DNA of 64,000 nucleotides, taken from NCBI GenBank assembly GCA_051294375.1, contig CM119267.1:23650115-23714114 (forward strand). Direction: 5' to 3'. Below the pieces are notes generated by a model. It searched no databases and was not told the DNA's origin. It saw nothing but the letters and a program-made list of their open reading frames with translations. Below, piece after piece: positions 1 to 43,134 of this stretch (position 1 is its first letter; each line of letters opens with the position of its first letter). The position numbers and the translations under genes are program-made. This DNA comes from Paraspadella gotoi. Lineage: Eukaryota > Animalia > Chaetognatha.

Positions 1-539
1 TAAAGCTAGGGCCAATCTTTGTCAATGGGGTGCGTCAAAAGTTTGATTTGGGAACCTTCCCAAATGAAACTTCATACATTTCTGAGAAAACTTTCAATGG
101 ACCAAAATTTTCTAAAATGGCTAGAAGCACTAGTAATTATTTTTTTACTATTTATTTATAGATAGAAAATGTTAAAAAAAGTTGTCTACATAAAATATAA
201 TTCTTTTTTCAATATTTTGCTGATAAGTGGGTTAAAATTGGGAGAAACCTTAAAAAAATTTTATTATCCGATGATTTTAGCAGTTTTTAATAAGTTTTAG
301 TAAGAAAACATCAAAATTTTAAAGTTGTAATTATATTTTTTGCTTAAATTTTTGAGCTCTATCAGAATCAATTAAAAAATGTTAAATACCAAAAAAAATT
401 GTTGGACTTAGCAATATAATAATTACTAATGTTTCGGAACATTTTTTCAAAAAAATATTTTAACACAATAATTAATACCAATAATGGATTAGTTTAATGC
501 TGTCCCCATTAAAATTTTGAATTTGGTCGGCTACCGCTA
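1..539. mobile_element. Non-autonomous DNA-transposon-like dispersed repeat (hAT-like TAG/CTA end)
   Basis: Aligns by eye over most of its length to the reverse complement of 60495-61128 (e.g. ...aatttggtcggctacc vs ggtagccgaccaaatt...). A more distant relative lies at about 18470-19075. Confidence 0.65.
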
Positions 540-909
540 CTTATATTATATTATATTATATCATAATCAGATTAACTTTTTTAATGTTTGTGCTTTTGAT
601 TATTCACTAAATGAGACCAACAAAAAAACTTGTTTTCGCCGACGATGAAAATGACGACTGACTCCATTTTCAGTTCACTCTGGTGTCTAAAACTCGCTTC
701 CTTATTGACTACTGTGCTACTGTGCTAACTTTAAACCCGCTATGCCTAAACGTTTCACTACAAAATAAAAAAAAGAAAAAAAAAATTCACGCCGTCACTC
801 ATCATGATTTTAATGCAGCGAGATACTAACTCTAAGATAGTCAAGTTGAAATTCAAATGATGTAAACTTTGAGTCTATTTTGTCTTTCAGGATAACATTG
901 ACACCGTTG

Positions 910-1094
910 CTAAGCGACGACGCCCTGACCGACGCCGCGACCGACAAGTTTGACGACGAAACCGACGAGAATGCCGACAATGCCGACGTCGACTCCGGCG
1001 CGAACAGAAGAAGCGCCGCAACGCCGAAGACTGGGCGGGCCGCAACGAAAATCGCAACTTCCGGTGCAGAAGCCTCGTTCTCCGTCTGGGGGAG

Positions 1095-1150
<56 letters not shown>

Positions 1151-1653
1151 AAAAAATAATAGCGATCAGTAATCATCAGCAACCTCCGAACGCATCCTTG
1201 GACAATCCTTTGAAAATTTTCAGCAGCCATCCAACTCATGCTTGGACATGCAGCAACCTTTATCACATCCTCCAAAACGCAGCATTTTTAGCGGCCATCC
1301 AACTGATTCTTGGACGTGCAGCAACCTTAATCACATCCTCTGACATGCCACATTTTCAGCAGCCATCCAACTCACGTTTGGGCATGCAGCAAACCTTTTT
1401 CCATCCTCCGAAACGCAGCATTTTAACTGATTCTTGGACGTGCAGCAACCTTAATCACATCCTATGACATGCAGCATTTTCAGCAGCCATCCAACTCACG
1501 CTTGGGCATACAGCAGCCGTCGGCTATCTTGTGTCCTCTGTAGACAAACTTGTTCGAAGAGCAGTAGTGATTGGACAAGCAGTCGCCGATATCCTCGGCG
1601 CAGCAGACGGAGAAGAGCAGTAGGAGCAGCAGCACGATGGAGCAAGGGCTCAT
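910..1653 (-). CDS. Small secreted 8-Cys, probably GPI-anchored protein, paralogue 1 (2 exons, 109 aa)
   Basis: Exon 1 1653-1500 encodes MSPCSIVLLLLLLFSVCCA-EDIGDCLSNHYCSSNKFVYRGHKIADGCCMPK, with phase-1 donor C|gtgagt. Exon 2 1085-910 follows a (CT)n-cccag acceptor and encodes (H)GERGFCTGSCDFRCGPPSLRRCGASSVRAGVDVGIVGILVGFVVKLVGRGVGQGVVA*. Phases match, and Cys spacing is shared with two neighbouring paralogues. Confidence 0.85.
1216..1520. repeat. Minisatellite with ~68-bp unit, about 4.5 copies, alternating A/B variants
   Basis: Recurring cagcagccatccaactca..ttgg.catgcagcaacc. It lies in the intron of paralogue 1 and overlaps its exon-1 end. Confidence 0.85.
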
Positions 1654-1713
1654 CTTTTATCGTCACTGATGTCACAACTGGTAGGTGGGTGGGATTGTTC
1701 GGTCTGTCTCTCT

Positions 1714-1945
1714 TGTAGTCGGGCATTGTAATAATTTCACCCCGCCTCTAAGCATATTCCCTTTCTTTAGTCGTGACCCGATGTCTCATGGAGTAATCCC
1801 ATCGGCTCATGACCACCTGCGGGAAACGTAAGGACGGTCGTAAACCGTAAACCGCCCAGGAACACGTTTCATTGCAGCCGAAGGGGCACGGAAGACAAGG
1901 ATAGTAGTCTGCAACCCACTTAGCGCCTTATTCACAAACTTACTT
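1714..1945 (+). mobile_element. tRNA-related interspersed repeat family A (SINE-like, with TGTAGTCGGGCAT 5' extension)
   Basis: Shares its 5' segment, tRNA-like head and agcgccttat 3' segment with copies at 5474-5527 (-), 13468-13665 (-), 30650-30834 (-) and 47616-47845 (+). Confidence 0.65.
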
Positions 1946-2415
1946 GTTTCGTTTAAGAAAGGGATTTAGATTTACCTTTGAGCAGATTTAAAAAGTTGAT
2001 CTGTTGTTGTTGTTGTTGTTTTTTTTTTGTTTTGTTTTTTTTTTCGCCGGTACAAATTTTTCAGAGGTTTAAGAGCGATAAATAAACTTATGACGTAGGA
2101 CAGCAAATTTACAAAAACTAATTATGATGTATAATTTATTTTAGTCTAGATTATTTATTTATACTTTACTTTATTTATATTTATTTATTACTTTATACTT
2201 TAAAAAATTGATCGATTTCGGTTGATAGGGCTGGTAGAATTTCATTTTACTCTTGTTGAATCGACGCTCATTCATTTGCAAGAATGAGTCACTCGCTTTT
2301 GCTCGTTAGGGTGATTAAGTCAGTTATGAGTAGTTTAGTTTCAGTTAGTGTTCGTTTTAAAGAAAAATAAATATCTAGCAAGAAATAGAAGAGAAGAGAA
2401 GAAAAGAGAAAACAC

Positions 2416-2490
<75 letters not shown>

Positions 2491-2903
2491 AGAGAAGAGA
2501 GAGAGTGTGTAACCGAAAAATTGAGAGACATATATATCTCAATTATTCTCTTACCTTTGTTTTTTTGTTTTTTTTTAATCCCATACAATTTTGTTCTTTA
2601 GATGAGACTTATTTCCATATTAATTTATTTTTCCTTCAAATTTTTATTTGTGCTCTTTCATCTTCAACATAGCGCAACAACCATTACCCGTTACTTCCGC
2701 TCGTCGCTTTCCTCGCGACCCGAAAACGAGGCTTCGTGTCGTTTCCACGAAGTAAATAATCAAAGAAAGAAAGTCCCTTTACCACACTCGTTTAGCCTCT
2801 TCGTCAAAAACGTTTTTTTTCTCTATTTTTTTATTATTTTTCTTTTTTTTTCGCAAAATTTATTTTTCCCTTTTTTTTTTAATTCGAGCTAAGGACGAAT
2901 AAA

Positions 2904-3909
2904 ATGTATTTTACTCTAATGCTCGCGGCGACGGTGGCGGCGTTGTCGTCCGTCGACGGGCAACTGACGTGCGGAGCTGCCAAGTGCGACCCCGCTAAAA
3001 ATCAACTCATGTGCAAGGTGATTGAGAAAAAACCGAAATGGGGCGGGGCTTAGTTTTTTAATTTATGTTTGCTAATGCTTTGTCTAATGGCAGAGAATTT
3101 AGTCGTTTGACGCTGCTATGGCCATCCAGAGTAATACGAAGTTTCATATTCTGAGAAAAAAAAAATGAGAAAGTCGACTTCATATCTTACAGTACGACAC
3201 GGCCTCTAAAAAGTCTGTCTGCGCCGACATCAATGATTGCGCCAAAAATTGCGCCGCCGCGACGGCTACATGCTCCTGCTGTGACAAGTTCGTAGATGAT
3301 AAGTCCTGCAAAACGTACTGGGATGGGGTCAAGATGAACGCAACTCAGTTGAAATGTCAAAAGGACGCGAAAACCACGGTCGAATGCACCGGTGTCCCCA
3401 AATTTGCGGCAATGTGCGGCCTCAATAAAAAAGGGTAAGGAGGGTGTTTATTATCATTTATTTTTATTCATAATTTTTTTAACCTATACGTTAATGATTA
3501 TATAAAGTTGTCAATCTTTGTTCATAGCAAACTTGGTTTCCCCTCTTTCTAAAGCGATCAAATGGGATGCGCCAATTCTGATGGAGTCTGCATCGCCAAG
3601 TATGGAAAAGACGGATGCTGCTGCAAGAAGGAAATATGCAATGCCAAGATGGCAACGTGCAAGGCGGATCAACCTAAGACCAATACAACCACTTCCATGA
3701 CCACTGCCAACCCGAGCGGTAACTCCACGGCCGCACCCGTCAAAACCACCACCAAAGCCGCCGGCAAAAAAACCACCAAAGCCCCCAAAAAAACCACCAT
3801 GACCACCACAACCACCACCGAAGCCGGCGAGATCGATTCCGCCGCCTCGACCTTCGCCGCCAACGTTGTCTTCGTCGTCGTCGCCGCCGTCGCCGCCGTC
3901 GGGGCTTGA
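2904..3909 (+). CDS. Cys-rich surface protein with Thr/Lys-rich mucin-like stalk and GPI-type C-terminus (3 exons, 236 aa); Ly6/three-finger-like end motif
   Basis: Exon 2904-3017 encodes signal peptide MYFTLMLAATVAALSSVDG (AAG|gtgatt). Exon 3193-3434 is bounded by ttacag| and GG|gtaagg. Exon 3555-3909 follows ttcccctctttctaaag. The spliced frame is open throughout. It contains CCCKKEICN, resembling the Ly6/uPAR CCxxxxCN end, then a T-rich stalk and the hydrophobic tail NVVFVVVAAVAAVGA*. Confidence 0.85.
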
Positions 3910-4749
3910 AGCTGGAGGCGGAGCGATGGGAAGACGGGGTGATGGGATTGAGACGGCGAGAGCGATGGGAAGACGGGGTGATGGGAGAAGGAAGAAGAAA
4001 TAAAGGGGATTTGGACTCGAAAGAGAAAGAAAGAGAAGAGAAGAGAAGAGAAAGAAACATTTTTTTAGGGACGAAAATAATTTATTTTTTTCTTGAGTTT
4101 TATTTTCTATTCGAATCTGAAATAAAAGAGAGAATAAAAAACAAAAGACCCAATTTTGATTTTTTTTTTTAATAAGACCTATGGTAGAACTGAAAAATAA
4201 ACGGAACATTTAAATTAAAATTATGAAGCAATGAAGAGTATCAAAATACGCGAAAGAGAAATTTTTTTTTTTAGTAATATTCAAATGTCCAGTTAAAAAT
4301 CAAAATGCCTAAACTGGATCGGAACCACCGACTTACGCAACTGTTTTCCTGATTTGACTCTACTGGGAATTTAGAGGAGTCGTGACGCTGATTGCATCTA
4401 AATTGTGTTTGAAAACATTTGAAAGGATATAAACCCGAAGATTAGGAAATACGAACTGGAAAACGTTTTTACCATGAGGAAACTAAATCATAATTACTCG
4501 TTTGGCATCGATAGCATTTTAGGTTCGAAATATTTATTAATCGGATGGATTCAACAGGGGAAGCGAAATCAACAGGAAAAACGAAGCGACTTTTGCGACT
4601 CAGAATCGAATGTTCATAATTTGGATTAGAGATTTGGTCAGAGATTTGGTCAGAGATTTGGATCAGAGATTTGGTCAGAGATTTTCCAATTTTGCTTCTT
4701 TTTCCTCTCGCACTTTACTAACTGTTAACGACTTAGACGATCTGCCTTC

Positions 4750-6455
4750 TCAACGGAATCCAACGCCGCCGACCTCGACAATGACGCCGCTAAGAATGAC
4801 GCCGATGACGCCGCTAAGAATGACGCCGATGACAACGTTTACGAAACCAAGACCGAGCGATCTCGCGCCGCATGCCATTCCTTTGCGTAGGCAACGCCCA
4901 CAGTTATCCGTGCAGAAACCAACGCCCCAATCTCGAAGGAAAAATTGATCGATTGATTGATTGGTTTTGATTGAGTGATTGCTCTCCTTTCGCAAGGGCG
5001 TGCACAATAGTAGACGCCCTCGACTAAGTCCTGGGGCCCAGGCGCCAAGGTAAGCCATCAAAAAAAACTGTGGATGTGTGGCGGTGTATTCACACCGCCT
5101 CACGTCAACCATCTTTCAGCCAAATCCATTGGCTCATAGGGGGAACACACCATCCCAAGCGTAGTGTTCCATCCACAGTCCTAACGACTTCCCTCTGCGT
5201 TGGCAAAGCGAGACCGTCCTAGGGTAACCGCGCCAGTGACAGGAGGCGTCACTGAGGGTCGGATGCCCCCAAAGCCAACAGTGAGATGCTCCATCCCAAT
5301 GGGCATCACAGGCAACCCGGCTGTTGCCCTAGATGCTTTTTATTTCAAACGAAAAATCTAAACGTTTAACTCGGATTGAGCTCATGAAAAATTCACATTT
5401 TTAATGTTTTTTTTGTGAAAAAACTCAACCTAATCTATTCATAATAATATATATATCTATATATATATATTCTCGACTGAAGGTGTTATGCTTAGAGGCG
5501 GGGTGAACTTTGCTATGCCCGACTACAAGCTCTCCGTTTCTCTAATGGGCCCGAGCCAGTGGCAACGCCTCTTTTTATCCCCAGGCGATTACTTACCCCT
5601 ATCCCTCCTTCGAATCGGCATGCAGCAGCCGTCGTTCATCCTGACTCCATTGACGATCATTATGTTTTCTGTGCAGAAGTAGTCGGAGTAACAGGAGAAT
5701 GGATCCTCACCCGCGCAGGAGCTAAAGACTGAGAAGAGGGAGGGAGGAGGAATAGCAGTGGGGGAGGAAAAGGAGCAGTGGGGGAGGAAAAGGAGCAGTA
5801 GGGGAGGAAAAGGAGCATTGGTCAGTTAAGAGAAGATTACATTTAAGATTAAAGATTAAATATTAAAGATTAAAGATTAAAGATTAAAGAATAAAGATTA
5901 AAAATTTAAGATTACATTAAAAAGATTTTACACAGATTATAGTTGGAAAATAATTGTATCGCTAAATTCGTTGTACAATACAAAATTAAACTTACACACG
6001 TACGAACCTTAGAACGATTTAATTAACTGAAAAAACCCATTCGGGGAAACTACTGGGAACCATCAGGGGAGACCTTTGTGCATGCATTAGAGTGTTGTAA
6101 AATAAGAAAGGAATTCTTGAGGTTTAAACATTTGAAAATACAGCCGGTGCAAAAAAAAATAAATAAATAAAAATAATAAAACCTGACAGAAAACAAACCT
6201 TTATCGAAAATCGCGGAGCGATATTGTCAATATTATCAATATTGTAAATATTATTGAATAATGAAATTTAGTAGTGTTTAATGTGAGTGTGAGCGTGAGT
6301 TGTTAAAAAAATTAATGAAAATCCTATCATTAATTTTATGTAATGAGGATATCGGCAACTTCTGAAAATCATTTACTAAAAAATAAAAATTTGTTTGACT
6401 AACCGCTGACGAAAACGACGACGACGACGACGACTGGGATCGAGCGAAACTTCAT
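4750..6455 (-). CDS. Small secreted 8-Cys, probably GPI-anchored protein, paralogue 2 (3 exons, 121 aa)
   Basis: Exon 1 6455-6404 MKFRSIPVVVVVVVFVS (G|gttagt). Exon 2 5728-5597 (V)FSSCAGEDPFSCYSDYFCTENIMIVNGVRMNDGCCMPIRRRDR (G|gtaagt). Exon 3 4931-4750 (D)WGVGFCTDNCGRCLRKGMACGARSLGLGFVNVVIGVILSGVIGVILSGVIVEVGGVGFR*. All junctions are phase 1. The last acceptor is an uncommon GAG (ttccttcgag), and exon 1 is the least certain part. Confidence 0.8.
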
Positions 6456-6477
6456 CTGCGACTGACAAAAGAGCAAC

Positions 6478-6546
<69 letters not shown>

Positions 6547-6893
6547 AGGGTTCGGCCTGACACCGTCTTGATCGTCGCAAAACAGCGCCGCTTCACGATT
6601 TCCGGCGACCTTAATGATTGTTATTACATCTCTTTTTATACTAACTTTTTAAAACTTAGACTCCAATGTTAGTTGGCGTTTAGGACCGTTTGGCGATATT
6701 AAAAACTTTTTTGTTCGTTTGTAGGTTTGTTTTAAATTTTGAAAAACTTTGGATAACCGGGTGCGTTAATGTTTACAGTTTATATATTTGATTTACTTTA
6801 CATCATATTTAATGGATAAATTTAACGATGAAATTAAGCAATTACTTCTTTCATGATTCGAAATTATCTTAATACGACTACGAGAAATAGAGA

Positions 6894-6924
<31 letters not shown>

Positions 6925-7284
6925 TATATACAAAGAAATCATTATAATTCAGTTAAGAAAAAGGGTCATTCAAATCACCTTCAAAATAGCTCCTGGCGAT
7001 TCCGTAAATGTATTCACTTTAAACATTTGATGCATTCTACGCCATTTTATATCGGTTTTAATTATAATATAAAATAAAAGAAACCTATCTGAAGAGTTGC
7101 AGGTCAAACAAAAAAGCCAATCCATCTGATATTTTTTATAAATTTTTTATTACTGAATTAGAAAAATGTAATAAAGAGACATTTTTAAATTTCAACTTGT
7201 ATCCTTAAAAAATGAAACGTTTTTAAACTTTAGCCTTGAATTCTTCCTAACTGGAATGCGTTTATCAAAATTTCTCTCTATTAC

Positions 7285-7878
7285 TAGTAGTTAAAAGTTT
7301 GATTTGGTCTTTTCATTCCAATAATATAAAAGGAAGTAACATAATATTTATTTATTAAAAGATTCTGCTATTTTAGAACATCTTTTTGATTGCACTAATA
7401 CCTGTCAATTTCCTGACCCAGGGGTTATTTGGGATGAATGTAAAATATTAGAACAAGAAAATAATAAATTAAAAAGATTGTCCTTAGAAAGTATTCATAT
7501 TAAAAAGAATAAACTTAAAACAGTAAATAGAAATGAAGGAAATTTGAGCACTGAATGGGATAAGGCTCTTAAGGTCACCTTTGAAAAGACAAAAACCATT
7601 TGGTTTAAGGTCATCTCAAGCCTATAGAATTCAAAGGCAGAGAAGAGAAGAAATGGCCAGAGTGAGGAGAATGGATTTTCAGCCAAATAGAAGAGTAGAA
7701 ACCTTACCTAAAACTGTTTTGTAAATTTTGTGTTATTTTGTTATGCACCTTTGAGGGAGACAGAAGTCTCTGAAGATCAGTGCTTATTTAAAAATAAATA
7801 TTATGTTACTTCCAGAAATAATTTGTTTTCCTTTTATATTATTGGCATGAAAAGACCAAATCAAACTTTTAACTACTA
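7285..7878. mobile_element. MITE with long terminal inverted repeats
   Basis: tagtagttaaaagtttgatttggtcttttcat.ccaataatataaaagga at 7285 is mirrored, ending at 7878. Confidence 0.75.
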
Positions 7879-8535
7879 AATCTTCTGCCAAAATCATGAC
7901 TCTCAAACAAATAAGTCTCTCTATTACATTTTTACAAATGTTTTTAAGATTGCTAATCAAATTTTTAAATCAAATTCAAATTCAGTGTAGATTCATTGTA
8001 GCTTGAATTTCTTTACCATCTATTTAACTGAAGATTTTGTTCATGACTAGAAAACCAACTAAGTAACAAGATTAATTGTTTAATTCTCCCCTTCTAAATT
8101 ATCCCTTACCGTGTTTTAACTTCTTACCTAAAATTTTTTAACAACCAGAGTGAAAAACAAATCTTTAAAAAATGTGCTTACCCATTTAACTTGACAATTT
8201 TGTTATTTACTGATTTAAAAAAAAAGATTTAAAACAGAATGTTTACATATAAATAAAAACTTATTTTTTTGTGATTACTGATTACTATAATGTATTTCTC
8301 GATGTATTAGCTCTAATACATCAATGATTACGCATTGTTATGGTGAATGACCTTTCCTCTTAAAATTTAAACCATAAAAATCTTCCATCTGTTCGCAGTT
8401 TGCGTCTAAATTATAATTTCAAATAGAATTACACTTGTAATCAACATTTTGAAAAGAGTAAAATCTTCAAATAGTATAATGTCATCTTTAAAAAGAAATC
8501 CGTCCCGCCGCCCCCCAATTTTTTTCCGGAAATCT

Positions 8536-9727
8536 CTACGATCCGGCGCCGGATCGCGTTGCCGAGACGACGACGCCGACGCCCACGAAGGCGACGACGA
8601 CGACGAAGCCGTTGAAGCCGGAAAAATGAATCGGCGCCGAACACCTCAATCCACTTTTCGTGCAATTCTTGCAGGACGCCGTGCAGATGCCTGAGTGGGA
8701 CTCTATGGTTGAAGGGAAGGGGGGTAGGATTGATTGTTAATCGATTGAGTCATTGATTGATTGATAGATTAATAATTTGCGAAAATATTCGATAGAAATA
8801 GAAATATTTAGGACTAAGCTCTGACGAACAAAGCCAGAGGTTTTTTTAATATATTCTTATACCGGCCAAGGTAGAATGATGGCAATAATAATGAATGATG
8901 GCAAGAATGATGGCAATAATCATACAATTGAAACATTCTTTGAAATATTTTCCACTTCATCGATAGGGAAGCCAGGTACTCTGGGAGTGAATAAACGGGA
9001 CTGTGAGAGAGTCTTGATTGAAAGCTTGCAGGGACCTGCTATGTCATTATCTTGTAAGAGTGATGGAGGCCTTAAACCACCAAAGCCTGTCCAAAGTCAG
9101 GGGCAAGATAGCTTATTTATTAAATGAATGGATAATTTTTATATTGGTTGTACCAATTTCATAAATATAAATTTTCAAAAAAATCCAACCATAAATATAG
9201 AAAATATTAACCAAAATCTTCGGAAAATCCACCCCTTCTTTGGAAGATTTTCGCCATAGAAGATTTTTTCCCGAATCTGACTCCCGGTTGAAAACTCTTA
9301 GAATTCTGATCGTTAGCTCCTCTTTTATTTTTACTTTAAATAAAAAATTCACCAAAATGGACTCAATCTCTTCCTCGATCTCTAAGAACGACGTCGGCTC
9401 CTAAAATATTGGTTTGCGGCTGTGAAGGTTTTGAAGCCACGGGGTCACTGGCGAAGTATACTGATAAAGTATTACGCGAGATATGCGCATTTTTAATGTA
9501 AGCGGAACAGACCGACAGACAGACATACCCAGAGACCGACCTACCGACCGACTGAAAAGCGACTCTTCGAGTAACTCACTGTTGTGCATGCAGCAACCGT
9601 CGCTGACTGGTGTCGAGTTAACGAGGAACGTGTGCTCGATGCAGTAGAAGTTCGAATAGCAATGGATAAAGTTTTCGCAGGAGATCAACGCAGCCAGCGA
9701 CAGGACGAGTACAAAGCAGAGATTCAT
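8536..9727 (-). CDS. Small secreted 8-Cys, probably GPI-anchored protein, paralogue 3 (2 exons, 104 aa)
   Basis: Exon 1 9727-9580 MNLCFVLVLSLAALISCENFIHCYSNFYCIEHTFLVNSTPVSDGCCMHN (A|gtgagt). Exon 2 8702-8536 follows ccccttcccttcaaccatag and encodes (K)SHSGICTASCKNCTKSGLRCSAPIHFSGFNGFVVVVAFVGVGVVVSATRSGAGS*. The CC-to-C spacing (9 aa) is identical to paralogue 1. Confidence 0.85.
8921..9165 (+). mobile_element. Interspersed repeat, possibly a Penelope-like element 3' end/pseudo-LTR
   Basis: Near-identical to the reverse complement of 48242-48482 and 48560-48749, with fragments at about 13825-13868 and 51583-51698. Translation ...ERVLIESL... is weakly reminiscent of a GIY-YIG C-terminus (inference). 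Confidence 0.55.
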
Positions 9728-10727
9728 TGGTTGCGAAGAGAGATGCTCCTTTTTTTTTTAAAGAAAGAATTAAGTTATTAATTTTCTTTTTTTATGTTTG
9801 GTTTATATTAAGAGTTAGACAAAAGAAGTAATGATTGATTTTAAGGATATGATTTGGAATGGAAAATTTTTTGAAAAATTGGAGAGAGAAACTAAAAAAG
9901 TTACAAAACATGATTTTATTAAATTTAAATTAAATGAAATTAAGTGAAACGATTGTTTTCACATTCACAGTGTTAGAAACCATTATCGAAAAATTTAAAA
10001 AAAATTTTTGAGACTTTTGCAAGAAATTAGAACCTTCTTTTTTTAAGATACGGATGTTCTATATACAATGTACAATGTACAATATAATTAAAGATTAAGA
10101 AAAAACGTTGTTCACTTATGCATGTAAGCTAAAGCACATCAAATGACTAAATTAGACAATAAAATTTTTCTGCAGGAAGTTTTATCAACAGCAATGTTAC
10201 AGATCCTTGTATAAATTTACTGAACAATAAAAAGGTAAATATGAACAATGCAAAAAAATGGCGGAAACTTCTCGTTAGATCTTGCTTAAGAGACAAGAGA
10301 CAAAAACAAGAAAATATGAAACTTACAATTTTTTTTTTGTTCGTTTTGTTTTGTTTTTTGTCATTCTATGGGGAGGTTCACAAAACATTTAGTAAAATAT
10401 TCAAAAAATTGAATGAGCGTTAGGTTTGTCATGGGAGAAAATAATTTTGAAAATATACAGTTGTACAACATCAATATTTAAGTAAAATATGAGTAAGCGG
10501 CAAAATTACATTAAATTACTTTTAAAATTTTTTTTCTGGTTGATTTTGATTAAATGTAATGTTAAAAAAACAAAAATTTTTAATTTATAATGTTTAAAGC
10601 AAAATAGTTTTTAATTTCAACAACGATTTTTTTACACAATTTATAATGTAAATACTTATTGTACATATAAAACTTTGGCCAAAAAATAGGACGGAAACAT
10701 CTGGAATCCCACGCAGGCTTAAACTTC

Positions 10728-13700
10728 CTATTCGATCTCGCTCAAAAAAATCAACATCGGACAAAACAAGAGCAGAAAAATGAAGAAATTATTATTTTCC
10801 AACGATTTTTCTTCGAGATAAAAAAGTAGATCCCCGAATACCCGCGTCAGATTCATCAGCCTCGGGTCCGTCAAGCGAAACATCCTGAAATAGAAATCTA
10901 CTATGAAATTAAATTCAATAGGAGCGGGCCGTTCAAAACTTGAGTCAGGTAAAAACAGAATTTTTTAAAAATGTTCAATTTTAATGCTTTTATTGTTGCT
11001 ATTAATATTCCAATAAAAAATTATGTTTTGATTTTAAGATAATTTTTAAAAAAATGATTGTTTTCAATATTTATTATTAAAATGCCATATTTGGTAGCAA
11101 TTAAAAAATATTTGTATAAAAAAGTAATACTAATTTATGGCTAACCCTTTTATATGTTTAATTCCATTATAATTTTGTTAATTCTATATTGCAAACATCA
11201 GTCAGAAAAAGAAGTGTCAGCTATACTAACCTTTGGAAATCACTTTTTCTTAATTCTATTTTAAAACTTTGACTTTAAAGTTTTGCTATATTCTACTTCC
11301 TGAACCAATTCAAATTTTTCTTGCACCAATCAAAAGCTCTTTAAAAGAACTGAAGAGACAGTAATTATTGTTATGTGTTAGTGACAGAACCGTTCAATAT
11401 AAGCAGTCCCTGAGCTTCGGATCAGGCTGTAATAACGTGTTACAGGCGGGTTAAGCGCCCCGTCCCTCTTAACTGCTAAGCGGCCACCGGGCTAGAACCC
11501 TGGACCTTTGGGTTGGGAGGCAAACGACTTGCCTCCGGCACCAATGGCCGCTGATGAACGGTTGGTGGATTTTAGTCCACCACAGAGCTATACTTTTCAT
11601 ATATATTTTCTCAATATTAAAAAAGAACTAGTGGTGTATTTAAAGCTACCTAGTGTCTTCTTTTTTTTGCGCCGCAGTGTATGATCAAAATATCGAGAAA
11701 AAAAAAATCAAACTTTGTGCAAGCAACTTTTTGCAAGCTAATTGAATCTGATCTTTAAAATAATTTTAACCTTTCTTATCTATAAATAAATATTAAAAAA
11801 ATAATATATGGGATATCGAATAAAAAAAATTTGGCTATTCACATTTTTAGAAAAATGTTTAAATTTTCGTTTGAGCAGGTGCTCATTTCAAATTTCTTAC
11901 TGAGTTAGACTACCCCTACCTGAAGACTCTCGGCCGAATCAGCGCCTTCGTCCGAACGTCGGCGCAGAGCCGCGCCATTCGAAGCAGCGGCGCCGCGATC
12001 TGCGAAGTCAGGGCGCAGGGGCGCAATGCGTCGCAGATTTTGTGCTGGTTGCCTTCTAAAGAAACCTCAGAATAAACTGAGTCAAAAAAATTGCGTTTGG
12101 AAAAAGGGCTTTTCTTTGGGTGAACCAAAGAACCGGCAGAAATATACAGGGTCAAGCCGAGAATTAGAGGCGCGACATTTTTTAACCGTTTGTGATCACA
12201 AAATGGGATTTTTGTGAAAAATACAATCGTAAGAAGGTAAAATGGCGTGAGAGAAAGGCCCGACAAGAAATATAAGTTTTCCTTGACGAATATATAAGCC
12301 AATAGGTTAACTTGTATTGAATCCACATATGAAGATAAAAGCGTTGTTTCATCTGAAACTTCTAATGATTCACAAAGTTTCCTGAAATACTTCAGAGAAG
12401 ATAATTCGCATTTTTGTAGCCATATATTCAGCATAGGAAACGAGACTAATGGGAGAACTAAACTTAATATTCCAATCAGGGAATTACAAAGCAGCTTGTG
12501 ATTGTTCAAAAGCCAAAATAAGCGTTCTTTCATCAAACTACAAATAACTATCATTAAAAAAATTAAATAATAGTTAGATAGAAAAGATCCACATTTATAT
12601 AAATTCGACTGAGCATCGGCGTGATGGTTTAATAAAAGAAAACGTTCAACTTTTGTCTCGTCAAAATCTCGCGGTTTTTGATACACGAAATAATTATTTA
12701 ACCCGTACCCGTCTTGTTTTTCCAAGACGACTTCTAAATTAAGAATACGAATAGAGTTGTACAAATTTATGTACAAAATAATACCAGAACTCGTCAAAAG
12801 AATTAACTTAAATAGCAAAATTTTCAAAAATCCCTTTATGAGAAGAAAAACCACTTGGTTGGTGAAGCTCAAGACCAACTCGCACCAAAACATGAGCGAA
12901 ACTAAGCGAAAGTCGGGGTACAAAAGAAAATGATTGCCCATACTTATAGTAACTAAGGAAGGGAACATTTCCATTTTGCTCCCGCTCTCTTGCGTAAAAT
13001 TTTTAACGCAGTTTGGATCGAATTTGAAGTCATAATCAAAAAACTTTAAGTTACTCCAGGTTTCTTGTTGAGCAATACCCATGGTCGAGTAACACAAAAA
13101 ATGTTTAAATCTCATCTGTTGAGTTCGGTCCATCTTGAAAACGAGAACTGGGAATACACGATGTTCCAACTTGCCAATTCCCCATTTCAACAGAACATAT
13201 GTGGTTTTGTTGCTTTGTAATTTGGCGGCAAAGAAGAAAGAGAATAGAGCAAGGTTCAGCAGAGAGCAGATAATTTTTTGCATCTGTTTTGTTTTTTTAT
13301 AGAGCTGAATTGTATATTATCATTTTATTTTAATAGAAGGCATAAAAGAAATTTACATAAAAAACGATTGCAACTGCTAGTTTTCTTTTGATCCTTTGCC
13401 AGCAACTGTTCAAAGTTATACTAGCATTGTCTTGCTTTTTCTAACGCAGGTGAGAAATCACTAATACTGTGGTGAGGATAAGGTGCTAACTGGGCTGAAG
13501 AGGTATCTTCTGCACCTCCTCATCAGCAAGTCTTGGAATGGAACCAGGCTGAAGGGTTTTCCACCAGCCAAAAGCGGTTTACAGCCGATCTCATGCTTCC
13601 CATAGAGAAGGTTCTATAGGATATTGTGCACAATGATCATGAGCTGATAGACTTCCTCAGTAAAGATTTTTTATTACTCTAAACGAACTCAATATGATTG

Positions 13701-16700
13701 ATATTTAATCATTTTATTAGTTAGAAAATTCTCTGACGTTTATGTTCCTATGTATTAAATTGGGAATACAATCACAACAACTGGTGCGCTTGCTTTCCAG
13801 CAGAATTCAATTTCAAACTCATTGTTAAATGAATGGATAATTTTTATATTGGTTGTACCAATTTCATATTATAATTTCTTTTATTCATTATTTAGTATAA
13901 TGTCTAATGTAAAAATTTCTTATGAATATATTTCAAGGTTTAGTGAAATAACAGGAGCTTGCCAGATCAATTATCTTTTTTTTTCAAATCTGAAATATTT
14001 TCTATAAGTTTTAACTAGAAAAACTATAAAATGTGAAAAAGTTTTTGACATTCTGATTGCTCAGAAACATAATTTAATGTCCAATATTTGTAAGATAAAC
14101 CCTAATTTTTTAACATTTTTATTTCTTTTCATAAAAATATACACGGTGACACACGACAACCTGCCGCTATAAAAAAAATCGTTTTTTAAGTATTAAATTA
14201 TTATTAGCTATTTTAGCATAATCTTTTTAAAACTTTTTTATAATACTTATATTATCATTATAGTTTAAATATGTTAGATATTTGAAAAATACATTTTAAG
14301 ATTTTATTATTTCAATTTTGATTACCTTGATTATATTAAAGCTGGTTAAGCTTATTTTTATATTATAATATTTGTAAATATATAATTCTCTTAAAATTTT
14401 CAGGAGCTTTTAAAAGATATTAATATTGATACCTTTTTATATAAAAATTTGTTAAAATATTTTGAGAAAATTACATAAAAAAATTGTATCTTTTCCTTTC
14501 TTGTTGTTATTATATGTTAATTTAAGTTGTAAGTTTAAAATTTTGTATAGTACAACAAATTTAATATTTAATTTGGGACATGTTTTGGTCTTTTCACTCT
14601 GTAGTACTTTTTTTATATGATTGGTGGTTTTAGTCAATGAGGTTCATTCACAACGAGGGTAGTAAGCTATACAATTTTAATTTTAATATTTTCGATGCTC
14701 AGTAAATTATTAAGTTTTGTTGATAATATACATCCCAGGCATTGCTTAGCATCAACAATTGCTGAGCTATCTCTATCTCGCCAAATCCCAGTGAGAACAG
14801 CCCTCAACTCTGCTGGCGTAAAAGCGCGGAAAATCAAAAGGATAGAGAGGAAAACAAACCAGGGACAGAAATCCACCGTCACTCTGTAAATAGAGACGAG
14901 GCCGAAGGTAACGCCTAAAACGCAATCAAGCGTTGCTAAGAAGCGACTGAGGATCTTTAACTGAACTTTCCCACAGCCAAGTAGTTGGCTCGAATCCGCA
15001 GATAACCTGGCTATGCTCATGGTGGAAAGAGCTATGGAAGCCAATTCAATGTAATTTTGAATGGCCCAACCACAACGATATTCAAAATGCGACACCATGT
15101 GGGTTCCCACAATTGATTTGCAGAAACATTTTATGTTCCTTGTACGGAATGTCTTGTTGGAGGAGACTACGAAGACATTGCCACTCTCTGAGGTGACACT
15201 CCTTGACGATTTTTTAAAAAGATCATTTGTAAAGCAAACCTGAGAAGGGACAAAAGGAATTTTGTTATTAAATGAAAACAAAAACAAATGAGAAAAAACT
15301 ATCATCAGTAGGCCATAGTTATTATCAAAGGAAAAGTAAAATTGTTTTAAACAAGGCTATAAAATTTTTTTATTTGTACCATTTAAGGAAAAACTCATGG
15401 ATTTCGATGGTGAAATCAACCGAGGTTATATTTCTGAGAATAAAGGTGACGGTGAGACACACGCAGGAGTCTTGATCAATTCTACTGAAACTAAAACAAG
15501 CTAGGTCTAGATCGCCCGAGTCTCCGATCGAATTTGCTTTTGGTGGCTTGATACTCCTGCGATGGTACAGTAACATGATTGATACTTGGTACTTTATAAG
15601 TATACAAATGTGGGATTCGATCCCAATGGTACTGTCTGTTAACTTTAACATATTGTGCGGAACTGTGTTTTTAAATTTTATTTCTGAGATAACAATGTCA
15701 AAGTTAAGTTCTTACCATTTATGATACTATCTTCAATTTTGAAATATTTTTCTGTCCAAAATATTTAATCCAAATGAGTCCTCATTTTTCACTTTTTTAA
15801 TTTTAAATAATTTATTTATTTTAAAATAAATTTTATTAAAAATTATGTAAAAATATTTTAAATTGTTATAAATTATTTAAATTTTAATTTTTATAAATTC
15901 GGTGCATTAATAAAATGAAATAAACAAATATAAAAAAAACAAAAATTAATAAAAATATGCTAATTAATTTGATATTTAAATTCTATTATTTGAAGTTGTG
16001 AGCGATTGAATCATTAAACCTGAACAAAATGGTTGCTATTTATTCTATAAATTATTATTAAATCAATTAAAAAGTAATATGAACAAGGTAAGTTGATAAT
16101 TTGGTCTATACTTGTGCGCTTATTCATTATAATAAATTAAAGTTTTTCGATCTGGTATTGGAGCAGTAAACTTTTCTTAACAGACAGTACCATTGGGACA
16201 CACTGTATAGTGTATAATAATCATTGTAACATATCTCAAATAATTCTTTTTTCTAGAGTGGAAAGTATATCATACCCAATGAAAAAATCTTCCAAACATA
16301 TTTCGAATATCTTTTAAAAAATAACTCCAAAGCACAGGTCATAATAACCTTTTTCAAGCACACACATCGAGCATGCGTACTATAGAATACCTCCTTTGAT
16401 CCCCTTGTCCACTCCAAAGCCGCAGCCGCAACTTGAAGGAGAAGTTGAGGAAAAGATTCCAGAAGTACTTGTATAAATTGGAGGTTTGAGTCCAATCGTC
16501 GCTTCAATGCAAATGATTTACCTTAAATGATTGATTGATAGAGTGATTAATATAATTGATTTAATTGGTTTTGTTAGAATATATAGATTGATTTACTGAG
16601 TTGATTTTTATTAACAGATTTGATTAAATAGAAACTCGCATGATGGGAAGAAGAAGATACTCCCAAGAGGGGTTGTCTCTAACTTTTTAACTTCTTTTAG

Positions 16701-24194: not shown

Positions 24195-26207
24195 TTAGTC
24201 GAGCGAAAAATCTTCTTCAATTCTTCCCATTTGTTGAATGAGTCTTTCACGGGCGTCGCAGTCATTGGTGTTCATCGCCCAACCGGTGAAGGAAGACATC
24301 AAGTCGGTCAGGGTCAAATTACCCGCGGCGTTGTTGTTGTTGCTGTTGTTGTTGTTGCTCTCTCCGTTGATGCCAGAAACGGCCAGGTTTCCAAACATCT
24401 CGGTCAACGACGCGTCTCTTGGAAATTGCCGCATCGTTGGTTGCCTGGAGACGCAAGACGCGGCGGCAGAGGCGCCTATTTCTTGAAGACTGATGGAATT
24501 TTCTTCGGCCACCCGTTCCGCCAGGTTATTCAGCCTTTCTTCAAAATCTCGAAACTTTTCCGCGGCCTTGCAACTTGGACACAGTCCCGGAATCTTCGAG
24601 TAGTCGATAGCGGTAAAGGTTGGCAAGGCGACGCCGGCTTCGACCGATCTGACAAAGATGACGACGAGGTCGTCGGCGGAGACTCGGTCTCGATCGGTTC
24701 CAACTCGTTCGAGCCACACCTCTGCCACAAAATGACAGAGTAGACGAAGGGAGGCGTCGATTTCTTGCGAAGAAAAGAAAATGGCGACTTCTTCGACGAG
24801 GACATCTTTCGGCAGAAGTCGGCGATAATTGGCGACGATGTAGAGCAAAGAATCCACGATCTCGTTTCGATCTCTCGTTTCACAACGAAGAGACGGAATG
24901 GTCTTGACGAGAAATAAACGCTCGGATGCTCCGTTGCTTTCGGCTATCCAATCCAAAGACGCAAACGAATCCACGGAACTAAAGTTTAACAACCCGTTCA
25001 AGTTACCCATCAACGCTCGAGCCCAATCTCCTTGAAAAACGGCGTCGTGCAAGTAACTCATCCAAGACTCAAAACCGTTGCTTGGCAACAGATCCGGATT
25101 TGTTCGCAAAAAACGAGTTGCCGTCGCTCTGCCGACGTTTGTTAAGATATCGAGATTGAAGGGCGAATCGGGAGATTGAATCAAATTCTGTACGCCGAAC
25201 AGCGGAGAGGTCTGCATCGACTCGAGGAAACCCGACATGTCAATGTGAAAGTTGCCTCCCTCGGGGGTCAGATTGAAATCGAATTGACCGTTCGCATCGA
25301 TGGCAGAAAGGAGTGGGCAGAAAAAGCGAGGATAGCGCATCACGATTCCGAATTGTTCGAAAACAACTTTGGCTCGATCCGCAATTTCCTTTTTCTTACT
25401 CTCGTCGGCGAAAGGAAATTTATCGAGGATATATTCTTGGCAAAGTTCCAGAGTCAGTGGAAGAATCTTCAAATGAGATTCGACCAAGATTTGAGAGGGA
25501 AACTTTTCGTGTCTCGTGAAAATGACCATGGAAACCTTGGACCTTGGCCTGCGGTCTTCCCGGAAATACTCGAGAATGGAGTCTTGGGTCTCACGTTCCG
25601 CCGAATCAAAATTGTCGAAAAGAACGAGAACGAAATCTTCGTCCAACGCAATTTCGGCGGCCAACTCCGGTGAAAAATCTTCGGAATCGAAAGGCTGGAA
25701 TATTGCGGCGAGTTGAGCGGCGACGTCCGTGCTGTTGACTTCCTCGAGGTCGACGCGGACGACGGCTTTGAAGTCGTGCAAAAGTTTTCCTCTGGCCCAT
25801 TTGCGAGGGATAAATCTCGTGGTTTCCGTTTTCCCGCTTCCCGTCGTTCCGGTCACGACGATCCGCTTCTTGCCATCCAAAATGTCCGATTCCAACGCCT
25901 TCACCAACCTCGCGTCCCGCGCCGTCCGTCCGTCGGCGCGTGCGCAGAGTAGATCGATGTAACACGAGTCAAGATCGAGAGGTTTAGCGCCAACGATTAT
26001 CGGAACCGTCATTTCTCGATACGAGGACAAATGATTTCTTTTGAGGTTTTTACGAAGAAGCATCATGACCGGGCCGTTCAAGTAAGGCGATAGTCGGGGT
26101 CCTTCGTAATATTGGCCGGCGATGACGGAGTTTAGGGCAATGACATTCTCTTCTTCCACTATCATCTCCCCTTCTTCCATTTTTATCACCATTTTACTTT
26201 TCGCCAT
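24195..26207 (-). CDS. Intronless NACHT-type (STAND) NTPase, NLR-like, about 670 aa
   Basis: Walker A GTTGSGKT (about 25850-25827) is followed by KWARGKLLHDFKAVV, as is typical of NLR NACHT domains. Walker B is VLVLFDNFD and sensor-1-like VIFTR follows; the pre-NACHT motif LDLDSCYIDL precedes them. The first ATG (aaaaaATGG) is at 26207; the ORF-track start at 26228 is a TTG. Confidence 0.88.
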   Translation of the reverse strand: MAKSKMVIKMEEGEMIVEEENVIALNSVIAGQYYEGPRLSPYLNGPVMMLLRKNLKRNHLSSYREMTVPIIVGAKPLDLDSCYIDLLCARADGRTARDARLVKALESDILDGKKRIVVTGTTGSGKTETTRFIPRKWARGKLLHDFKAVVRVDLEEVNSTDVAAQLAAIFQPFDSEDFSPELAAEIALDEDFVLVLFDNFDSAERETQDSILEYFREDRRPRSKVSMVIFTRHEKFPSQILVESHLKILPLTLELCQEYILDKFPFADESKKKEIADRAKVVFEQFGIVMRYPRFFCPLLSAIDANGQFDFNLTPEGGNFHIDMSGFLESMQTSPLFGVQNLIQSPDSPFNLDILTNVGRATATRFLRTNPDLLPSNGFESWMSYLHDAVFQGDWARALMGNLNGLLNFSSVDSFASLDWIAESNGASERLFLVKTIPSLRCETRDRNEIVDSLLYIVANYRRLLPKDVLVEEVAIFFSSQEIDASLRLLCHFVAEVWLERVGTDRDRVSADDLVVIFVRSVEAGVALPTFTAIDYSKIPGLCPSCKAAEKFRDFEERLNNLAERVAEENSISLQEIGASAAASCVSRQPTMRQFPRDASLTEMFGNLAVSGINGESNNNNSNNNNAAGNLTLTDLMSSFTGWAMNTNDCDARERLIQQMGRIEEDFSLD

Positions 26208-26301
26208 TTTTTGTTTAGCCCAATACAAGGTAACAATAAAAATTCCGCCACAAAAAATTGTCTTTGAGTAACCATTGAGATTTTAACCTTTCGAGATTTC
26301 G

Positions 26302-39817: not shown

Positions 39818-43134
<3,317 letters not shown>

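What the first reader, a model, noticed from the sequence alone, without database searches (positions are those of the whole stretch)
910..9727. Hidden tandem family of three small 8-cysteine GPI-type surface proteins (invariant DGCCM)
Seen in sequence: three minus-strand spliced genes about 4 kb apart, none recovered intact by the ORF track. Each encodes a signal peptide, then C-x5-C-x15-CC-x9/14-C-x3-C-x2/3-C-x6/7-C, a small-residue site (CGA/CSA) and a hydrophobic tail. All three have a phase-1 intron just after DGCCM. Inter-cysteine residues are highly divergent while the scaffold is fixed. Established knowledge: signal peptide plus small omega residues plus hydrophobic C-terminus is the GPI-anchor architecture. 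Inference: a lineage-specific, diversified disulfide-rich surface family, such as recognition proteins, tethered toxin-like modulators or gamete/immune ligands. I do not recognise this Cys framework; it lacks the Ly6 CCxxxxCN end.
Basis: partly seen in the sequence, partly recalled or inferred. Interest (0 to 1): 0.82.

Follow-up and report, generated by a model that had tools for sequence, protein, structure and literature searches.

The report
Three orphan membrane-tethered eight-cysteine mini-proteins
Three neighbouring, anciently duplicated genes in an animal genome (likely an arrow worm) encode tiny proteins with one shared eight-cysteine pattern that matched no known family in the searches run; they are predicted to sit tethered on the cell surface and likely act as binding partners of other membrane proteins, a common kind of protein in an unrecognised shape.

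Summary
All four junctions are GT-AG, phase 1, and give open 109, 121 and 104 aa proteins with the stated cysteine spacing. The three are true paralogues (0 of 2000 cysteine-fixed shuffles reach their scores). RNA-type contigs stop exactly at two acceptors, so g1 and g2 splicing is inferred; g3's junction was not shown. Three corrections. (1) The GPI call is weaker than stated: the CGA/CSA sites lie 34-39 residues from the end (usual 20-30), so a single membrane helix fits about as well. (2) Divergence looks old and constrained (pS 0.55-0.93, pN 0.31-0.37), not adaptive. No family, homologue or fold was found, but only exon pieces could be searched, and two control proteins from this window also drew blanks. 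Ly6 membership fails on tested features. Best reading: a lineage-restricted family of tethered disulfide-rich modules that likely bind membrane receptors in cis. The scan had not noted this family elsewhere. Real and undescribed as far as searched, but of an ordinary kind.

The parts
1500..1653 (-). g1 exon 1: signal peptide plus Cys 1-4 (ends just after DGCCM)
   Evidence: donor GT at 1499; X1 contig remainder of 158 letters = 154-base exon + 4 (inferred)
910..1085 (-). g1 exon 2: Cys 5-8, small residues, Gly/Val-rich hydrophobic tail, stop
   Evidence: X1 contig piece 792-1085 stops exactly at the acceptor; AATAAA-type hexamer at 814
6404..6455 (-). g2 exon 1: signal peptide
   Evidence: phase-1 GT-AG intron 6403-5729
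5597..5728 (-). g2 exon 2: end of signal peptide plus Cys 1-4
   Evidence: a depth-34 contig shows one synonymous difference at 5670; predicted beta-hairpin
4750..4931 (-). g2 exon 3: Cys 5-8 and a long hydrophobic tail holding a 24-base tandem duplication
   Evidence: X1 contig piece 4519-4931 (depth 34) stops exactly at the acceptor; polyA-type hexamer at 4538
9580..9727 (-). g3 exon 1: signal peptide plus Cys 1-4
   Evidence: junction not displayed in RNA contigs
8536..8702 (-). g3 exon 2: Cys 5-8, hydrophobic segment, short polar tail
   Evidence: homology to g1/g2 exon 2
Not shown to be homologous to g1-g3
   Evidence: both GT..AG joints seen in contigs of runs X1 and X2; similarity to the g1-3 profile 2.5 bits, reached by 77 of 2000 shuffles
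1216..1515 (.). 68-base tandem repeat (4.6 copies) that starts in the end of g1 exon 1 and carries degenerate copies of its donor site into the intron

Best explanation
[quoted passage not shown] Shown: gene structure, homology, cysteine pattern, hydrophobic ends, purifying selection. Inferred from contig arithmetic: splicing of g1 and g2. Predicted: signal cleavage just before a shared E-[DN]-x3-C start, leaving exactly 8 cysteines; a beta-hairpin between Cys 2 and Cys 3/4; the anchor (my odds: GPI about 50%, uncleaved single helix about 40%, other 10%). Inferred only: action in cis. It rests on the domain sitting within about 10 residues of the hydrophobic segment, with no stalk and at most 8 residues on the far side, so it could neither reach far nor signal by itself. 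The variable hairpin faces and the 9-14 residue loop after DGCCM would give each paralogue its own partner.
For: Models and spacing. Homology beyond the cysteines. pS 0.55-0.93 against pN 0.31-0.37 over 37 core codons. Contigs end at the predicted acceptors 1085 and 4931, with remainders that fit the upstream exons. N-terminal 11-residue hydropathy 3.1-3.6; C-terminal 19-residue hydropathy 2.2-2.7. Hairpin E11-20/E23-32 in the exon model, mean pLDDT 70. No stalk, in contrast with g4 next door. Precedent for tethered disulfide domains regulating membrane receptors: PMC13719153 (parts 1-2 of 4 read) and PMC6600238 (passages).
Against: No partner, tissue or function data exist. No sequence or fold link to Ly6 or to any modulator family. 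The anchor type is unresolved. The hairpin model covers half the domain, rests on 3 sequences and has pTM 0.30. The g3 junction is not displayed, and the g1/g2 joints are not among the 15 joints listed, with 50 more hidden. The dN/dS core was chosen around conserved positions, which lowers pN.
Confidence: 0.4

Rival explanations
1. Cell-surface recognition or adhesion tags acting in trans (cell-cell, gamete, epidermal or microbe binding), with the paralogues giving different specificities.
For: Tandem paralogues with a fixed scaffold and variable loops. Small tethered LU proteins serve in fertilization and septate junctions (PMC13719153; PMC6600238).
Against: No stalk. No excess of replacement change. 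Only three copies in the window.
Confidence: 0.28
2. They are highly derived members of a known disulfide fold that the piecewise searches missed: a knottin/disulfide-directed-hairpin (colipase, prokineticin or hevein type; the cysteine order C-C-CC-C-C-C-C is recalled from these), a three-finger domain that lost loop 1, or a TNFR-A1-like hairpin joined to a furin-like four-cysteine module (both patterns recalled). This concerns ancestry and is compatible with either function above.
For: The cysteine order fits knottin-type frameworks (recalled). Nearest Atlas clusters were lycotoxin 0.81, conotoxin 0.79 and hirudin 0.76. g2 has the three-exon, phase-1 layout typical of LU genes (PMC6600238), and a Ly6-like gene sits in the cluster. 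Only exon pieces could be scanned, which lowers sensitivity.
Confidence: 0.45
3. Precursors of released bioactive peptides (toxin-like or antimicrobial), shed from the anchor by a phospholipase or protease.
For: Toxin-like size and cysteine density. g2 has a basic stretch in one loop.
Against: All three keep a C-terminal hydrophobic segment with no basic processing site shared by all three after Cys 8. Net charge is 0 to +2. No toxin family hit. 'venom' does not occur in the main text of the arrow-worm genome paper.
Confidence: 0.12
4. Structural coat proteins of the epidermis or another membrane surface, with no specific partner.
For: Gly/Val-rich tails and simple architecture. A mucin-stalked GPI gene lies in the same cluster.
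Against: Non-cysteine positions (S, DG, M, G-x-C-T) stay invariant despite synonymous saturation. This fits a constrained fold or binding surface but does not exclude a structural role.
Confidence: 0.15
5. Artefact or pseudogenes.
For: The g3 junction is not seen, and run X1 is RNA only by guess.
Against: Open frames across 4 of 4 canonical introns, a homologous intron position, pS well above pN, contigs ending at acceptors, and GT..AG joints at g4 in the same run.
Confidence: 0.03

Closest known systems
Single-domain Ly6/uPAR (LU, three-finger) proteins such as CD59, Lynx1 and the Drosophila septate-junction Ly6 genes (PMC6600238 passages; PMC13719153 parts 1-2)
   Same: Signal peptide + one small disulfide-rich beta domain + GPI signal or C-terminal helix; clustered paralogues; phase-1 intron inside the domain; g2 has the three-exon layout.
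   Different: 53-58 residues (LU 60-90); 8 cysteines with the doublet at positions 3-4; no Asn after the last cysteine; no Pfam hit in pieces; three-finger fold not shown.
Knottin / disulfide-directed beta-hairpin folds: ICK toxins, prokineticin/colipase (bioRxiv 10.1101/485722 passages); hevein and conotoxin C-C-CC-C-C-C-C frameworks (recalled)
   Same: Cysteine order C-C-CC-C-C-C-C; C-x5-C start; predicted hairpin; size.
   Different: 15-residue loop 2, 9-14-residue loop after the doublet and 3-residue gap after Cys 5 differ from recalled ICK spacings; membrane anchor present; no propeptide; no HMM or structure match; connectivity unknown.
Small single-CRD TNF-receptor-family proteins (A1/B2 modules; PMC2779652 passages; module spacings recalled)
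   Same: Tiny cysteine-rich ectodomain close to a membrane helix; a C-x2-N-x-F-like hairpin start in g1 (recalled A1 pattern).
   Different: Spacing after the doublet does not follow the recalled B2 module; essentially no cytoplasmic domain; no Pfam hit.
Lineage-specific tandem duplicates of chaetognaths (PMC12460157 passages)
   Same: Tandem paralogues a few kb apart with no recognisable homologues; that paper reports thousands of duplicates, some about 10 kb apart, and many phylum-specific genes.
   Different: The window's assignment to arrow worms comes from earlier unreviewed notes, not from my tests. The terms DGCCM, Ly6, Lynx, Quiver and toxin were absent from the 3 supplement files held as text.

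Membership tests
Ly6/uPAR (LU) domain | 60-90 residues with 10 ancestral cysteines (the 2-3 pair is often lost) | tested here: not met
   Domains are 55, 58 and 53 residues with 8 cysteines and the doublet at positions 3-4; definition from PMC6600238.
Ly6/uPAR (LU) domain | Invariant Asn after the last cysteine | tested here: not met
   Last cysteine is followed by G, G, S in 3 of 3. g4 does carry CC-x4-CN.
Ly6/uPAR (LU) domain | Signal exon plus two domain exons with phase-1 introns, in gene clusters | tested here: inconclusive
   Met by g2; g1 and g3 lack the first intron. Phase-1 introns are common in secreted-protein genes (own knowledge).
Ly6/uPAR (LU) domain | Three-finger fold | not testable with these tools
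   The spliced domain could not be folded; the exon model shows one hairpin only.
GPI-anchored protein | N-terminal signal peptide | tested here: met
   Hydropathy only (11-residue maxima 3.1-3.6 within the first 18 residues; small residues before a shared E start). SignalP was not available.
GPI-anchored protein | Omega site about 20-30 residues from the C-terminus | tested here: not met
   CGA/CSA sites are 35, 39 and 34 residues from the end; only g1 has a candidate in range (25). g4's sites are 20-23. Rule from PMC2571997.
GPI-anchored protein | Small residues at omega to omega+2 | tested here: met
   Several candidates in g1 and g2; in g3 only the last cysteine itself or one site upstream of it, because Pro follows. 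Rules.
GPI-anchored protein | Hydrophobic tail from omega+10 to the C-terminal end | tested here: inconclusive
   Tail hydropathy 1.3-2.1 with 1-4 charged residues and polar ends, against 2.7-2.9 and none in g4.
GPI-anchored protein | Release by PI-PLC / anchor attachment | not testable with these tools
   Needs a bench test.
Knottin / DDH (ICK, colipase-prokineticin, hevein) | Match to a family profile or solved structure | tested here: inconclusive
   No hits, but with exon pieces only; Atlas hits at chance level.
Knottin / DDH (ICK, colipase-prokineticin, hevein) | Cystine-knot or DDH disulfide connectivity | not testable with these tools
   No whole-domain model and no coordinates.
TNF-receptor cysteine-rich domain | A1 plus B2 module spacing (spacing recalled) and family profile match | tested here: not met
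   9-14 residues follow the doublet; no Pfam hit in pieces. Module scheme from PMC2779652.

The most novel reading that the evidence does not exclude
A new disulfide fold, unrelated to three-finger proteins, that arrow worms use as membrane-tethered 'prototoxin' modulators of their expanded ion-channel families: an independent invention of the Lynx strategy, and a new peptide scaffold.
Probability: 0.15. Interest if true: 0.65.

Novelty: new variant of a known kind. Interest (0 to 1): 0.35.

Why it matters
If the fold is new, it adds a compact four-disulfide scaffold and a concrete example of the phylum-specific genes that PMC12460157 links to new cell types. If it modulates channels, it would show that tethered modulators arose more than once. 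As it stands it is a solid but functionless orphan family. Small tethered Cys-rich families are common in invertebrates, so a specialist would not be surprised, and no open question becomes directly testable.

Full report
1. Observation. I read 1-11000 on the minus strand and built the models by coordinates. g1 is 1653-1500/1085-910 (109 aa), g2 is 6455-6404/5728-5597/4931-4750 (121 aa) and g3 is 9727-9580/8702-8536 (104 aa). Each protein has a hydrophobic N-terminus followed by E-[DN]-x3-C, so cleavage before that Glu (predicted by eye and hydropathy) leaves exactly 8 cysteines. The internal intron lies 2, 7 and 2 residues after DGCCM but at one fixed distance before G-[FI]-C-T, so it is the same intron. 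Only g2 has a second intron, in the signal peptide.

2. More than chance. The DGCCM codon pattern occurs 3 times in the window against 0.02 expected. Domain pairs score 103-121, and 0 of 5000 shuffles reach this in any of 3 pairs even with cysteines held in place. A profile of any two finds the third at 38.5-45.2 bits; the best of 2000 cysteine-fixed shuffles is 19.7. Profiles of either exon find only these three among 2492 six-frame segments. Over 37 core codons pS is 0.93, 0.83 and 0.55, and pN is 0.31, 0.37 and 0.34. These are old duplicates under purifying selection. The core was chosen around conserved positions, so pN is biased low, but the near-saturated pS stands.

3. Expression. Three runs hold part of the stretch, none on record as RNA. 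Laid on 700-10000, run X1 has a 452-letter contig whose listed piece covers 792-1085 and stops at the g1 acceptor; the 158 letters left equal exon 1 plus 4. A 579-letter contig of depth 34 covers 4519-4931 and stops at the g2 acceptor; a single depth-34 contig also shows a synonymous difference at 5670 in exon 2, and the remainder (132 + 34) fits exons 2 and 1. Both pieces end about 20 bases past a polyA-type hexamer (814, 4538), a weak hint since contigs cannot show RNA ends. These joints are inferred: they are not among the 15 listed, and 50 were hidden. The g3 junction was not displayed.

4. A missed gene. Between g1 and g2, on the plus strand, lies g4 (2904-3017/3193-3434/3555-3909; 236 aa). 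Both its GT..AG joints are seen in contigs of X1 and X2, which also shows that these runs hold spliced RNA. It has 20 cysteines ending in a CC-x4-CN motif (the Ly6-type end, recalled), a Thr-rich stalk, and a textbook GPI signal with sites 20-23 residues from the end and an uncharged tail. Its intron phases are 0 and 2, and its likeness to g1-3 is not significant. It serves as an internal yardstick for the anchor.

5. The anchor. Published rules place omega about 20-30 residues from the C-terminus, with small residues to omega+2, a spacer, and a hydrophobic tail to the end (PMC2571997 passages; bioRxiv 10.1101/838680 passages). The tails carry 1-4 charged residues and end polar in g2 and g3, and their best 19-residue hydropathy is 2.2, 2.7 and 2.3. 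The g1 exon-2 model gives a 36-residue helix, pLDDT about 80 in its middle. Membrane tethering is likely; GPI versus an uncleaved single helix is open (about 50:40, my estimate).

6. Identity. No Pfam family matched any of 6 exon pieces. PDB sequence searches gave chance hits only. The large protein libraries gave nothing real, nor did metagenome contigs. Two limits apply. Only single exons could be searched or folded, so a family profile that spans the intron loses score. And the same library found nothing for the window's NACHT protein or for g4 exon 2, so it appears blind to this organism. The exon-1 piece folds to a beta-hairpin (strands 11-20 and 23-32, mean pLDDT 70, pTM 0.30, 3 sequences); symmetric pairing about the turn would set Cys 2 opposite Cys 4 (my inference). 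It matched nothing by Foldseek or VIA. Atlas neighbours (lycotoxin, conotoxin, hirudin clusters) scored 0.76-0.81, chance level.

7. Organism. Earlier unreviewed notes on other pieces of this genome call it very likely an arrow worm; I did not test this. If right, the setting is ordinary: PMC12460157 (passages; 3 supplement files searched) reports thousands of duplicated genes, some about 10 kb apart, many phylum-specific genes and expanded ion-transport families. The invertebrate three-finger survey PMC13719153 (parts 1-2 of 4) lists 22 phyla, and Chaetognatha is not among them. Supplementary tables of the genome paper that are not held as text could bear on these genes.

8. How it most likely works. 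The protein would enter the ER, form four disulfides and reach the surface with its domain within about 10 residues of the membrane anchor. It has no catalytic motif, no stalk and at most 8 residues beyond the hydrophobic segment. That anatomy suits a cis-acting partner of a receptor or channel, the role known for Lynx-type Ly6 proteins (PMC13719153 introduction; PMC8771676 and PMC6502960 seen as search listings only). I put this at 0.40, recognition or adhesion in trans at 0.28, structural coat at 0.15, shed toxin-like or antimicrobial peptide at 0.12 and artefact at 0.03. Separately, I put the chance that the domain is a derived version of a known fold at 0.45. The function is inferred from architecture alone.

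9. Membership. By the LU definition in PMC6600238 (passages) the domains fail on length, cysteine pattern and terminal Asn, so they are not filed as Ly6, though they may work like them. Knottin/DDH (bioRxiv 10.1101/485722 passages) and TNFR modules (PMC2779652 passages) resemble them only by recalled spacings; connectivity could not be tested. No description of this framework appeared in searches. The scan's own index had nothing near this place or like this sequence; it held one tandem Cys-rich GPI array of another family in a choanoflagellate.

10. Verdict. A real, constrained, probably undescribed small family of tethered 8-cysteine proteins: a new variant of a common kind. Interest 0.35. 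The boldest open reading, a new fold used as a tethered channel modulator, has probability 0.15 and would deserve 0.65.

Noticed in passing
window 2904-3909 (+): g4: spliced 236-aa gene with 20 Cys, a Ly6-like CC-x4-CN end, Thr stalk and textbook GPI signal; joints seen in two runs; no Pfam or library hit in pieces. Possibly a divergent or double LU protein.
   Followed up: partly
window 24195-26282 (-): Uninterrupted 695-codon frame with a NACHT NTPase domain (Pfam E 3.9e-9); no homologue among 7988 candidates; no repeat or death-fold domain recognised.
   Followed up: partly
window 11916-13316 and 16253-16522 (-): A 466-codon hydrophobic frame without Pfam hit, and upstream a short frame with a weak XK-related match (E 0.018, below cut-off); perhaps parts of one membrane-protein gene.
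   Followed up: partly
window 1216-1515: 68-base tandem repeat (4.6 copies) built from the end of g1 exon 1 and its donor, leaving degenerate spare donor sites in the intron.
   Followed up: no
window 4781-4833: Perfect 24-base tandem duplication that lengthens g2's hydrophobic tail by 8 residues.
   Followed up: no
window 9401-9727 (-): g3 exon 1 reads on into its intron for 108 codons; intron retention would give a secreted 4-Cys form without anchor. No evidence that it is used; no Pfam hit.
   Followed up: partly
window 6456-6480 (-) and 2865-2890 (+): Pyrimidine tract plus AG right before the g2 start codon and just upstream of g4, where an X2 contig begins with 3 unaligned letters; possible trans-splice acceptors.
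   Followed up: no
window 5054-5364 and 8786-9407: Intronic stretches with very high, polymorphic contig cover in X1: likely high-copy repeats.
   Followed up: no
window about 40200-40800 (+) and 42100-42760 (-): Near-identical blocks in opposite orientation, seen in the frame listing; likely a repeat element or an assembly duplicate.
   Followed up: no
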